Below are positions 41,846 through 44,800 of a stretch of 64,000 bases of DNA, one piece after another (the stretch's first letter is position 1; each line of letters begins with the position of its first letter). The position numbers were made by a program. Source of the DNA: Escherichia coli O127:H6 str. E2348/69 (GTDB taxonomy: Bacteria > Pseudomonadota > Gammaproteobacteria > Enterobacterales > Enterobacteriaceae); NCBI RefSeq assembly GCF_000026545.1, contig NC_011601.1; one strand, written 5' to 3'.

Positions 41846-44800
41846 CTACGCTCCTGAATCTTAAAGACAACGGCGGTGGCTACAGATAGAATTGCAAGCT
41901 TTCGTAACTCATGTCCGCTGTTGCGATGACTTCGTGTTAATCTTAACGTTATTACGGCATTGGCACGTCAGAACAAAATCTGAGAGGTGAATCCGTTGAG
42001 TATAATTATCTTAGCGACGATTTCGACGACTCAAGAGAATAAATGACGTTTAAGCCATGAAACAAGCTAAAATCCTGCAAAAGACGAGTTTTTACGGGCG
42101 TATTTAAAGTGATAATCATAAGATATCTGGTGCGGGAGACGCTCAAAAGCCAGCTGGCGATACTCTTCATCTTGCTTTTGATCTTCTTCTGTCAAAAGTT
42201 AGTGAGGATCCTCGGCGCAGCGGTTGACGGCGATATTCCGGCGAATCTGGTGCTCTCCCTTCTCGGGTTGGGCGTGCCGGAAATGGCGCAGCTTATCCTG
42301 CCATTAAGCCTGTTCCTCGGGCTGCTGATGACGCTGGGCAAACTGTATACCGAAAGTGAAATTACGGTAATGCATGCCTGCGGTCTGAGCAAAGCGGTGC
42401 TGGTGAAAGCGGCAATGATCCTTGCGGTGTTCACGGCAATCGTCGCGGCGGTTAACGTGATGTGGGCGGGACCATGGTCATCGCGTCATCAGGATGAAGT
42501 GTTAGCAGAAGCGAAAGCGAACCCTGGCATGGCGGCGCTGGCGCAAGGGCAATTCCAGCAAGCGACTAATGGCAGCTCGGTGCTGTTCATCGAAAGCGTT
42601 GACGGCAGCGATTTCAAAGATGTGTTCCTCGCGCAAATTCGACCAAAAGGTAATGCACGACCTTCTGTGGTGGTGGCCGATTCCGGACATTTAACCCAGC
42701 TGCGCGACGGCTCCCAGGTCGTCACTCTCAACCAGGGAACGCGCTTCGAAGGCACTGCACTGTTACGTGATTTCCGCATTACGGATTTCCAGGATTATCA
42801 GGCGATCATTGGTCACCAGGCGGTGGCGCTCGACCCGAACGATACCGACCAGATGGACATGCGCACATTGTGGAACACTGACACCGATCGTGCTCGCGCA
42901 GAACTGAACTGGCGTATCACGTTGGTGTTCACCGTGTTTATGATGGCACTTATGGTCGTACCGCTGAGCGTGGTTAACCCGCGTCAGGGGCGCGTACTAT
43001 CGATGCTGCCAGCCATGCTGCTGTATCTGTTGTTCTTCCTGATCCAGACCTCCCTGAAATCGAACGGCGGTAAAGGTAAGCTGGACCCGACGCTGTGGAT
43101 GTGGACCGTTAACCTGATTTATCTGGCTTTGGCGATTGTTCTCAACCTTTGGGACACCGTGCCGGTCCGTCGCCTGCGCGCCAGTTTTTCGCGTAAAGGA
43201 GCGGTGTGATGCAACCTTTTGGCGTACTTGACCGCTATATCGGTAAAACTATTTTCACCACCATCATGATGACGCTGTTCATGCAGGTGTCGCTGTCCGG
43301 CATTATCAAGTTTGTCGATCAGCTGAAAAAAGCCGGGCAGGGGAGTTACGACGCGTTAGGCGCAGGAATGTATACCTTGCTGAGCGTGCCGAAAGATGTG
43401 CAAATCTTCTTCCCGATGGCGGCTCTGCTTGGGGCGTTGCTTGGTCTTGGGATGCTGGCGCAGCGCAGCGAACTGGTAGTCATGCAGGCTTCTGGTTTTA
43501 CCCGTATGCAGGTGGCGCTGTCGGTGATGAAAACCGCCATTCCGCTGGTCTTGCTGACGATGGCGATTGGTGAATGGGTCGCGCCGCAGGGCGAGCAGAT
43601 GGCGCGTAACTACCGTGCGCAGGCGATGTACGGCGGCTCGTTGCTCTCTACCCAGCAAGGTTTATGGGCGAAAGATGGCAACAACTTCGTCTACATTGAG
43701 CGGGTTAAAGGTGACGAAGAGTTAGGTGGCATCAGTATTTATGCCTTTAACGAGAATCGTCGTCTGCAATCCGTACGCTATGCCGCTACCGCGAAGTTTG
43801 ACCCGGAACATAAAGTCTGGCGTCTGTCGCAGGTTGATGAATCTGATTTGACCAATCCGAAACAGATCACCGGTTCGCAGACGGTGAGCGGCACCTGGAA
43901 AACCAACCTAACGCCAGACAAACTGGGCGTGGTGGCGCTGGACCCGGATGCACTCTCTATCCGCGGTTTGCACAACTATGTGAAGTATCTGAAGTCGAGC
44001 GGTCAGGATGCCGGACGTTATCAGCTCAACATGTGGAGCAAAATCTTCCAGCCGCTATCCGTGGCGGTGATGATGCTGATGGCGCTGTCGTTCATCTTTG
44101 GCCCACTGCGTAGCGTACCGATGGGCGTGCGTGTGGTCACCGGTATCAGCTTCGGTTTTGTCTTCTACGTACTGGACCAGATCTTCGGCCCGCTGACGTT
44201 GGTTTACGGCATCCCGCCGATCATTGGCGCACTGTTGCCAAGTGCCAGCTTCTTCTTAATCAGCCTGTGGCTGTTAATGAGAAAATCGTAACCTAACAAG
44301 GGAGCGAAAGCTCCCTTTTTTATTGTTGACAAAGTCAAATACGAGTTCGAACGGTCCCCTCGCCCCTTTGGGGAGAGGGTTAGGGTGAGGGGCACAGATC
44401 ACGTCTGACTTACCTTTTTCTCCCCCCCCAGCAAACTCCCCAACATCCCACGCACAATCTGATTCGTCACCTGGCGGGCGGCGCTTTTCGCCATTGTTTG
44501 CACCACACCATCTTTCTTCCCGCCGCGTGGTCCGGTAGTGCCAAACAAAATATCCTTCAATCCACCAAGAATACCGTCATCCACCGCCACCTCTTTCCCT
44601 TTCGCGGGAGGATTATTTTGCTGCTCGGTACTGGCCTGAAAGCCTTTTTGCAACATCTCATAGGCGGATTCCCGGTCCACGTCATCCTCGTACTTGCCAT
44701 ACACCGGAGAGTGATTAATCAAGCCATTACGCTCATCTTCCGTCACCGGCCCCATTCGTGAACAGGGGGCAATCACCATCGCCCGTTCCACCACTGAAGG

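What the first reader, a model, noticed from the sequence alone, without database searches (positions are those of the whole stretch)
44292..44398. Shared bidirectional terminator and G/C-rich inverted repeat between lptG and yjgR
A hairpin with T-run (gggagcgaaagctccc-ttttttatt) is followed by cccctcgcccctttggggagagggttagggtgaggggc, which contains imperfect inverted copies of a GGGGNGAGGGG unit. It looks like a small intergenic repeat element rather than random sequence.
Basis: seen in the sequence. Interest (0 to 1): 0.2.

Follow-up and report, generated by a model that had tools for sequence, protein, structure and literature searches.

The report
Known BoxC repeat beside lptG terminator
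The G/C-rich sequence between lptG and yjgR is a copy of BoxC, a short intergenic repeat of E. coli already described under three names (BoxC, PIT element, TMECO triplex motif), and it sits next to an ordinary lptG terminator hairpin, so the finding is real but not new.

Summary
The window is E. coli E2348/69, and both described features are present. A GGGAGC-GAAA-GCTCCC hairpin followed by T6 starts 8 nt after the lptG stop. It is a normal intrinsic-terminator motif on the + strand. The scan finds no terminator on the − strand, so "bidirectional" is not supported in this strain.

The G/C element at 44357-44392 is a BoxC / PIT / TMECO repeat. It fits the published consensus CCCTCNCCC-N3-6-GGGNGAGGG-N3-GGGNGAGGG exactly. 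It is identical over 36 nt to three K-12 copies and to the "type A mm" class that Holder et al. 2015 showed forms an intrastrand triplex in vitro. Comparison with 13 K-12 copies extends the unit leftward to about 44327.

The family has a median of 17 BLAST places per E. coli genome. This is nevertheless the only intact copy in E2348/69, because the zntA-tusA copy is split by an ISEc13 insertion.

The locus has two haplotypes. About 34% of 5,426 genomes carry BoxC here. About 66%, including K-12, carry a REP-containing segment instead. Two strains have expanded the element's GGGTTA into 4-5 tandem units.

The best reading is a dispensable, structure-prone intergenic repeat. No dedicated function has been demonstrated. 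Already known; low interest.

The parts
43209..44291 (+). lptG coding sequence (LPS export ABC permease), stop TAA at 44289-44291
   Evidence: ORF list. RefSeq annotation of E2348/69 mapped onto the window.
44298..44324 (+). Intrinsic-terminator motif for lptFG: stem AAGGGAGC/GCTCCCTT (core GGGAGC 44300-44305 and GCTCCC 44310-44315), GAAA loop, then T6ATT (44316-44324)
   Evidence: Terminator scan, + strand only. Fold -14.4 kcal/mol, z -4.2. The hairpin is invariant in the strains aligned (7 in A2, 5 in A3), while the T tract varies: TTTTTTATT, TTTATTATT or TTTCACATT.
44327..44356 (+). Left flank of the extended BoxC unit (TTGACAAAGTCAAATACGAGTTCGAACGGTC). It contains the small palindrome TGACAAAGTCA at 44327-44337.
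   Evidence: Shared with K-12 type-A copies, approximate consensus GATGACAAAGTCAAAAA.G.GC.CGGACGGTC. Megablast aligns window 44327-44397 to the K-12 gcvP-ygfF copy at 87.5% identity.
44357..44392 (+). BoxC / PIT / TMECO core, type A 'mm'. Arm 1 CCCTCGCCC 44357-44365, loop CTTTG 44366-44370, arm 2 GGGAGAGGG 44371-44379, loop TTA 44380-44382, arm 3 GGGTGAGGG 44383-44391, final G 44392.
   Evidence: Exact match to the published consensus by regex. Identical to K-12 TMECO nos. 7, 11 and 15 in Table 1 of PMC4666352. Multi-copy across E. coli. 44370-44392 also matches a G3N3G3N3G3N3G3 quadruplex pattern.
44336..44393 (.). Haplotype-specific segment (58 nt). In K-12-type genomes it is replaced by roughly 100 nt of unrelated sequence containing a REP-like palindrome.
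   Evidence: Alignments A1, A2 and A3. Population counts.
44399..45913 (-). yjgR coding sequence (HerA-like / DUF853 protein). Its stop codon at 44399-44401 lies 6 nt from the BoxC core, so the C-rich strand of BoxC forms the start of the yjgR 3' UTR.
   Evidence: As RNA, the - strand of 44350-44400 folds at -18.7 kcal/mol.
44422..44429 (-). C8 homopolymer (G8 in the yjgR sense), one base longer than in the six other strains aligned. It shifts the last yjgR codons and moves the stop codon toward BoxC.
   Evidence: Alignment A2. Translations ...[11 protein letters not shown] versus ...LLGGRRR*.

Best explanation
The region holds two independent features.

(a) The first is an ordinary intrinsic terminator hairpin that ends lptFG transcription 8 nt after the lptG stop.

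(b) The second is a solo copy of the BoxC repeat (also called PIT element or TMECO type A with one mismatch), lodged in the 3' space between the convergent genes lptG and yjgR. BoxC is a non-coding, non-autonomous repeat. Its core has one C-rich arm and two G-rich arms, so the G-rich strand can fold into a hairpin or an intrastrand purine-motif triplex when single-stranded. Here that is the window + strand, whose mildly positive GC skew suggests it is the lagging-strand template.

At this locus the element is dispensable. It is one of two haplotypes segregating in E. coli, and it behaves as a structure-prone, locally unstable passenger rather than a regulatory part of either gene. Its only likely contact with gene expression is that the C-rich strand is transcribed as the first ~40 nt of the yjgR 3' UTR, where it forms a stable hairpin.

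Shown here: the element's identity, its copy number, the haplotype structure and the instability. Shown elsewhere, for this type A mm class: triplex formation in vitro, and no promoter or terminator activity. Inferred: neutrality at this locus and any 3'-UTR effect.
For: Identity:
- The core matches the consensus by regex and is 36/36 identical to K-12 TMECO nos. 7, 11 and 15.
- The paper's negative-control oligonucleotide is this sequence with four G-to-C changes.
- The left flank is shared with 13 K-12 copies.

Family:
- A 66-nt query finds 88,027 places in 5425 of 5426 genomes, median 17 per genome.
- Published counts are 23 copies in K-12, and 56 bp / 32 copies in the older BoxC literature.

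Dispensability:
- The K-12-type REP haplotype is present in 3582 of 5426 genomes.
- In an evenly spaced sample, 20 of 60 genomes have the BoxC haplotype and 39 of 60 the REP haplotype.
- Both haplotypes occur within phylogroup B2: E2348/69 versus ST131.

Instability:
- GGGTTA is expanded to 4 and 5 units in two strains.
- Strain HS has a mosaic haplotype.
- An IS4-family insertion lies inside another copy.
- Holder et al. report raised variability around TMECO loci.

Structure:
- The triplet map gives 7 C:G.G triplets, one T:A.T, and one G:A.A at the mismatch position.
- The published melting temperature for type A mm is 74 C, with triplex imino signals in NMR.

Terminator.
Against: No transcript data for this locus were found, so the real 3' ends of the lptG and yjgR transcripts are unknown.

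In vivo DMS footprinting in the literature did not detect a stable triplex, so the structure-driven instability mechanism remains an inference.

The motif, including positions my search left free, recurs in distant phyla: the first free position is G or T, the second is A in about 98% of copies, and the third is T in about 90%. That is more conservation than a purely neutral passenger would predict. It hints at a constraint, either structural or a recognising protein, that this explanation does not name.

The polarity of the haplotype change (BoxC gained or lost) was not resolved, because no outgroup was obtained.
Confidence: 0.75

Rival explanations
1. BoxC here is a selected 3'-UTR element of yjgR. 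Its C-rich RNA hairpin, placed 6 nt after the stop codon, would protect the mRNA from 3'-5' exonucleases or help terminate transcription, much as REP elements do. Together with the upstream hairpin it would then form the convergent pair's termination zone.
For: The - strand RNA of 44350-44400 folds at -18.7 kcal/mol directly after the stop codon. The alternative haplotype carries a REP at the equivalent position. REPs have recently been reported to act as context-dependent terminator-stabilisers and to associate with higher expression of convergent pairs (abstract of 10.64898/2026.03.23.713779). Six of 13 K-12 type-A copies examined lie between convergent genes.
Against: The fold is not unusual for its composition (z = -1.4; 18 of 200 shuffles fold as well). 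No U tract follows the hairpin. Earlier experiments found no promoter or terminator activity for PIT elements (cited in PMC4666352). Element orientation relative to neighbouring genes is not consistent in K-12. The yjgR stop is this close to BoxC only because of a strain-specific frameshift.
Confidence: 0.12
2. BoxC is a selected non-B-DNA device. An intrastrand triplex or G-quadruplex would stall replication or transcription and be maintained because it generates local genetic diversity.
For: The type A mm oligonucleotide class forms a stable triplex in vitro, and the elements block DNA polymerase in vitro. The G-rich part also fits G3N3G3N3G3N3G3. TMECO loci are more variable than control intergenic sites. 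This locus shows haplotype replacement, hexamer expansion and a neighbouring homopolymer frameshift.
Against: In vivo footprinting did not detect the triplex, and no in vivo effect on replication, transcription or conjugation was found. Variability around a repeat is equally expected if repeats simply accumulate where sequence is unconstrained. Selection for evolvability at a housekeeping 3' intergenic site is hard to justify. B2 strains manage with 0-2 copies.
Confidence: 0.08
3. BoxC is the cis-acting substrate of an unidentified enzyme, for example a single-strand DNA transposase acting in trans as RAYTs act on REPs. It would then be an actively mobilised miniature element, and the window copy a recent insertion.
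For: The extended unit has a defined left end near CTGATGACAAAGTC in several copies. Full-length K-12 copies are palindromic pairs of types A and B, with solo copies resembling halves. The same core, including unconstrained positions, is multi-copy in Beta-, Alpha-, Gamma- and Deltaproteobacteria, Myxococcales and Verrucomicrobia, with lineage-specific flanks. Copy number differs about tenfold between phylogroups.
Against: No target-site duplication or clean empty site was found at this locus; the alleles differ by segment replacement. No associated gene is known. Holder et al. found no link to transposons, phages or plasmids, and only 51 of 88,027 places lie on plasmids. The zntA-tusA copy is fixed rather than polymorphic.
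Confidence: 0.05

Closest known systems
BoxC repeat (Bachellier/Hofnung surveys), also called PIT element (Hoyne et al. 2000) and TMECO intrastrand triplex motif (Holder et al. 2015, PMC4666352)
   Same: The core fits the consensus exactly and is identical to three K-12 copies. It is type A (TTA second loop) with the common G.A mismatch. It is intergenic, and it shares the family's left flank.
   Different: Nothing essential differs. It is a solo copy rather than a pair of inverted type A and type B cores. It is the only intact copy in its genome. K-12, where the family was described, lacks the element at this locus.
REP / BIME (PU) elements of enterobacteria
   Same: Both are short G+C-rich palindromic extragenic repeats that accumulate in 3' intergenic space. 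The alternative haplotype at this very locus carries a REP-like unit, and REP and BoxC are adjacent at several K-12 loci.
   Different: The sequence family is different. BoxC has three arms rather than two, has no known RAYT-type mobilising enzyme, and is present at tens rather than hundreds of copies.
Intrinsic (Rho-independent) terminators, including bidirectional terminators of convergent gene pairs
   Same: The 44298-44324 hairpin plus T tract fits the + strand model and lies between convergent genes.
   Different: In this strain, the A tract that a bidirectional terminator needs on the lptG side is reduced to AACAA. The - strand tail is UUGUUAGG and fails the consensus scan. The BoxC core is not part of the terminator.
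Potential G-quadruplex sequences and telomere-like TTAGGG repeats
   Same: GGG-AGA-GGG-TTA-GGG-TGA-GGG matches the G4 pattern. In two strains the GGGTTA unit has expanded to 4-5 tandem copies.
   Different: Published NMR on the full oligonucleotide favours a triplex over a G-quadruplex. The expansions are rare strain variants, not a functional array.

Membership tests
BoxC / PIT / TMECO | Core matches 5'-CCCTCNCCC N3-6 GGGNGAGGG N3 GGGNGAGGG [G/T/C/-]-3' | tested here: met
   Regex hit at 44357-44391 followed by G at 44392. The consensus is quoted from PMC4666352.
BoxC / PIT / TMECO | Near-identity to the described E. coli copies, with subtype defined by the second loop (TTA = type A, CCG = type B) | tested here: met
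   36/36 identity to K-12 TMECO nos. 7, 11 and 15. The TTA loop and the G.A mismatch make it type A mm.
BoxC / PIT / TMECO | Intergenic location | tested here: met
   The core lies between the lptG stop (44291) and the yjgR stop (44399).
BoxC / PIT / TMECO | Dispersed multi-copy family within the genome | tested here: inconclusive
   Met at species level: median 17 and up to 33 places per genome, 23 copies in K-12. Not met in this genome. E2348/69 has 1 TMECO in Table S7, BLAST finds 1-2 places, and the second copy is split by ISEc13. Low counts are typical of phylogroup B2.
BoxC / PIT / TMECO | Family-specific flanking sequence beyond the 36-nt core (the longer BoxC unit) | tested here: met
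   About 30 nt of left flank is shared with K-12 type-A copies. There is 87.5% identity over 71 nt to the gcvP-ygfF copy.
BoxC / PIT / TMECO | G-rich strand forms an intrastrand purine-motif triplex in vitro | not testable with these tools
   The triplet map is compatible. Formation was shown experimentally for the type A mm oligonucleotide class by Holder et al.. ViennaRNA predicts only the hairpin, at -8.6 kcal/mol with DNA parameters.
Intrinsic terminator (lptFG) | G+C-rich stem-loop immediately followed by a U/T tract, just downstream of the stop codon | tested here: met
   (+ strand; 8 pairs; tail TTTTATTGTT after the extended stem).. The stem begins 8 nt after the stop codon.
Bidirectional terminator shared by lptG and yjgR | T tract after the hairpin on both strands (an A tract on the 5' side as well) | tested here: not met
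   No - strand terminator was reported between 44000 and 44700. The - strand tail is TTGTTAGG. The K-12/HS haplotype has a better tail (TTTATTCG), because it retains 9 nt that are absent here.
Bidirectional terminator shared by lptG and yjgR | Mapped RNA 3' ends of both transcripts at the hairpin | not tested
   No data were found. A search of the TERMITe supplements found neither lptG nor yjgR.
REP / BIME | REP consensus palindrome | tested here: not met
   The window sequence has none. The REP-like unit (GCATGATAAGACGCGCCAGCGTCGCATCAGGC) is present only in the K-12-type haplotype.
Any Rfam RNA family | Covariance-model score at or above the gathering threshold | tested here: not met
   The best hits score 16-20 bits against thresholds of 40-94, with E-values from 0.37 to 6.

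The most novel reading that the evidence does not exclude
The BoxC core may be the recognition substrate of an unidentified, widely distributed enzyme that acts on folded single-stranded DNA, analogous to RAYT transposases acting on REPs.

This would explain three observations. The same 33-36-nt motif is multi-copy in several phyla with lineage-specific flanks, and that includes positions not needed for pairing. Full-length elements are palindromic pairs. Copy number is 18-30 in E. coli phylogroups A and B1 but 0-2 in B2.

The window copy, the last intact one in a B2 genome, would then be a relic in a lineage that lacks the activity.
Probability: 0.08. Interest if true: 0.6.

Novelty: already known. 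Interest (0 to 1): 0.12.

Why it matters
For annotation, these 36-77 nt should be labelled as a BoxC/TMECO repeat and not as part of the lptG terminator or as an RNA gene.

More broadly, BoxC is still a repeat without a known function or spreading mechanism. This locus is a compact natural experiment for studying it:
- Two haplotypes (BoxC or REP) sit in the same convergent 3' region across thousands of genomes.
- Hexamer expansions occur inside the element.
- E2348/69 carries a single intact copy.

None of this changes what is known about the family.

Tried and rejected
- **Rfam.** A permissive-threshold scan of 43800-44900 gave only sub-threshold chance hits. This is not a described RNA family.
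- **Experimental 3' ends.** A full-text search for yjgR found nothing relevant. The TERMITe Term-seq supplements contain neither lptG nor yjgR.
- **Terminator scan on the K-12 locus.** The scan did not flag the same hairpin there, although by eye its tail (TTTATTATT) seems to meet the stated criteria. I could not explain this, so I did not use it as evidence about terminator strength.
- **Scan of species-representative genomes.** It returned only non-enterobacterial genomes, so it gave taxonomic breadth but no enterobacterial outgroup for this locus. The polarity of the BoxC/REP replacement is therefore unresolved.
- **Search for an empty site.** I looked at another solo locus (zntA-tusA) to define element ends and any target duplication. 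That copy is essentially fixed in E. coli, with only insertion variants, so no empty site was obtained.
- **Chance inverted repeat.** Rejected.
- **BoxC as part of the terminator.** Rejected. The core lies 41 nt beyond the hairpin stem, about 66% of genomes lack it at this locus, and the hairpin itself is invariant.
- **RNA hairpin stability as evidence of function.** Not used. Fold z-scores of -1.4 to -1.6 are unremarkable for this composition.
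Full report
**Where we are.** The window is Escherichia coli E2348/69 (O127:H6). 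A 901-nt query spanning the finding is 100% identical to three assemblies of that strain. The flanking genes are lptG (+ strand, 43209-44291) and yjgR (- strand, 44399-45913).

**The observation.** The sequence reads as described. Eight nucleotides after the lptG stop there is a GGGAGC-GAAA-GCTCCC hairpin (44300-44315), followed by TTTTTTATT. After 31 nt comes CCCCTCGCCCC-TTT-GGGGAGAGGG-TTA-GGGTGAGGGG (44356-44392). The yjgR stop codon lies six nucleotides beyond that, at 44399-44401.

The hairpin is picked up as a terminator-like site on the + strand. It folds at -14.4 kcal/mol, z = -4.2.

The G/C element is not chance. The 23-mer occurs once in the window with none expected at up to three mismatches. 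All three GGGNGAGGG units in 64 kb sit within these 35 nt.

**What the G/C element is.** It is a copy of a repeat that has been described three times. It was named BoxC in the 1990s surveys of enterobacterial palindromic repeats, PIT (potential intrastrand triplex) element by Hoyne et al. in 2000, and TMECO by Holder et al. in 2015 (PMC4666352).
- The published consensus is CCCTCNCCC-N3-6-GGGNGAGGG-N3-GGGNGAGGG. The window matches it exactly at 44357-44391/2.
- The 36-nt core is identical to K-12 copies nos. 7, 11 and 15 in that paper's Table 1, classed "type A mm": TTA second loop and one mismatched triplet.
- The paper's negative-control oligonucleotide is this sequence with four G-to-C changes.
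- Mapping the arms gives seven C:G.G triplets, one T:A.T and one G:A.A (the mismatch). Holder et al. report a triplex NMR/CD signature and a Tm of 74 C for this class in vitro. They found no detectable protection in vivo, and they cite earlier work that found no promoter or terminator activity.
- The G-rich part also fits a G3N3G3N3G3N3G3 quadruplex pattern, which the same authors considered and excluded for the full oligonucleotide.
- Rfam has no family for it.

**The unit is longer than the core.** I fetched 13 K-12 type-A copies with flanks and oriented them alike. They share about 30 nt to the left of the core, roughly GATGACAAAGTCAAAAA.G.GC.CGGACGGTC. The window copy has this flank, running from about 44327 and including the small palindrome TGACAAAGTCA. 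Megablast independently aligns window 44327-44397 to the K-12 gcvP-ygfF copy at 87.5% identity.

Several K-12 copies are inverted pairs of type A and type B cores separated by about 27 nt, as the literature notes. The window copy is a solo type A.

**Copy number.** A 66-nt query finds 88,027 places in 5425 of 5426 complete E. coli genomes, with a median of 17 and a maximum of 33 per genome. Only 51 of those places are on plasmids.

E2348/69 is an exception. BLAST finds only one or two places in it, and Holder et al.'s Table S7 lists one TMECO for it. Phylogroup B2 strains in general have 0-2, against 18-30 in A/B1 strains.

I traced the second place. The zntA-tusA copy is present in nearly all E. 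coli. In E2348/69 it is split by an IS4-like ISEc13 insertion inside arm 1/loop 1, flanked by a 9-bp duplication AGAGGAGCG. The window copy is therefore the only intact BoxC in this genome.

**The locus is dimorphic.** K-12 MG1655 has no BoxC between lptG and yjgR. In its place is roughly 100 nt of unrelated sequence containing a REP-like palindrome.
- Aligning seven strains and then five shows two haplotypes. They share the terminator hairpin and rejoin at ACAGATC just before the yjgR stop. They differ across window 44336-44393.
- The K-12-type segment is found at 80% coverage or more in 3582 of 5426 genomes.
- In an evenly spaced sample of 60 records, 20 have the BoxC haplotype, 39 have the REP haplotype and one is a plasmid hit.
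- A similar sample with the BoxC segment as query gives 12 of 30.
- Overall, about one third of E. coli carry BoxC here.
- Both haplotypes occur within B2 (E2348/69 versus ST131) and across other phylogroups.
- Strain HS has BoxC together with a 9-bp block typical of the other haplotype, so the alleles recombine.
- I could not establish which state is ancestral.

**Instability inside the element.** In strains KOr019 and CUVET19-1704 the GGGTTA that joins arm 2 to arm 3 is expanded to five and four tandem units. This fits the published claim that these loci are unusually variable. It does not show that the structure causes the variability.

**The terminator claim.** The hairpin is invariant in every strain aligned, but its T tract is not: T6ATT here, TTTATTATT in K-12 and TTTCACATT in O26 and HS.
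- On the + strand it is a standard intrinsic terminator for lptFG.
- On the - strand the stem is followed by UUGUUAGG, and the scan reports no - strand terminator in the region.
- The REP haplotype retains 9 nt that give a better - strand tail.
- "Shared bidirectional terminator" is therefore not supported by sequence in this strain and remains untested. I found no 3'-end data for either gene.
- The BoxC core lies 41 nt beyond the hairpin stem and is absent from most genomes at this locus, so it is not part of the terminator.

**How it most likely works.** The best-supported reading is an ordinary lptFG terminator plus a dispensable BoxC passenger in the 3' space of a convergent gene pair. lptG transcripts should stop before reaching BoxC. 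yjgR transcripts carry its C-rich strand as the first part of their 3' UTR, where it folds at -18.7 kcal/mol. That fold is unremarkable for the composition (z = -1.4).

A REP-like role as stabiliser or terminator helper is possible. It is made more plausible by the fact that the other haplotype has a REP in the same place, and by recent work on REPs. But prior tests of PIT elements were negative, and element orientation is inconsistent across K-12 loci.

I put about 0.75 on the combined statement. Identity as BoxC is about 0.97, and "no dedicated function at this locus" about 0.6-0.7.

**Wider distribution.** Multi-copy hits came from Mitsuaria and Polaromonas (Betaproteobacteria), Candidatus Contendobacter, and MAGs from Hyphomicrobiales, Myxococcales, Deltaproteobacteria and Verrucomicrobia. 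There was one Bacteroidaceae hit. Flanks are lineage-specific and inverted pairs are frequent.

The positions the pattern leaves free are not random. The first is G or T, the second is A in about 98% of copies and the third is T in about 90%. Holder et al. already reported the wide distribution. The cause of this conservation is unknown, and it is the one aspect that leaves room for something new, such as an unidentified enzyme that recognises the folded core. I give that a low probability.

**Verdict.** The element is already known.

Noticed in passing
window 44422-44429 (yjgR 3' end, - strand gene): E2348/69 has a C8 run where six other strains have seven bases. The frameshift changes the YjgR C-terminus from ...LLGGRRR* to ...[11 protein letters not shown] and moves the stop 11 nt toward BoxC. 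All three E2348/69 assemblies agree, and RefSeq annotates the gene as intact.
   Followed up: partly
L136 (strain KOr019) and L141 (strain CUVET19-1704), equivalent to window 44374-44385: The GGGTTA spanning arm 2 and loop 2 of BoxC is expanded to 5 and 4 tandem units. This makes a small telomere-like TTAGGG microsatellite inside the repeat.
   Followed up: yes
L144 6964-8560 (E2348/69 tusA-zntA intergenic region): The only other BoxC of E2348/69 is interrupted by an IS4-like ISEc13 element inserted within arm 1/loop 1, with a 9-bp target duplication AGAGGAGCG. This explains the published count of one TMECO for this strain.
   Followed up: yes
L001 2940-3058 (K-12 lptG-yjgR intergenic region): K-12 and about 66% of E. 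coli genomes have a REP-containing segment where E2348/69 has BoxC. Strain HS (L142) is a mosaic of the two haplotypes.
   Followed up: yes
Table S7 of PMC4666352: BoxC/TMECO copy number tracks phylogroup strongly: 18-30 in A/B1, 10-11 in O157/O55, 6-13 in D/F, and 0-2 in B2. The cause, whether loss in B2 or expansion elsewhere, is not explained in what I read.
   Followed up: no
L076-L122 (Mitsuaria chitosanitabida) and L037-L068 (Polaromonas MAG): Dozens of copies of the same three-arm motif occur per genome in Betaproteobacteria. They often form inverted pairs and have their own conserved flanks, for example ...GAGGGTCTTCGGGCT in Mitsuaria and a ~45-nt right flank in a Polaromonas subfamily.
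   Followed up: partly
L137 (ST131 strain 5392): yjgR is annotated as a pseudogene with an internal stop in this ST131 genome.
   Followed up: no
window 51133-51152: A second G-quadruplex-type motif, GGGATGGGGCAGGGGAAGGG, lies on the + strand. It is the only other such motif in the window, and its context was not examined.
   Followed up: no
NZ_CP074792.1 1629-1664 (154.7-kb E. coli plasmid): A perfect 36-nt BoxC core sits on a plasmid. Plasmid copies are rare, 51 of 88,027 places.
   Followed up: no
L001 2918-2945: The terminator scan did not report the K-12 version of the lptG hairpin, although by eye its tail (TTTATTATT) seems to satisfy the stated rule. This tool behaviour is unexplained.
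   Followed up: no
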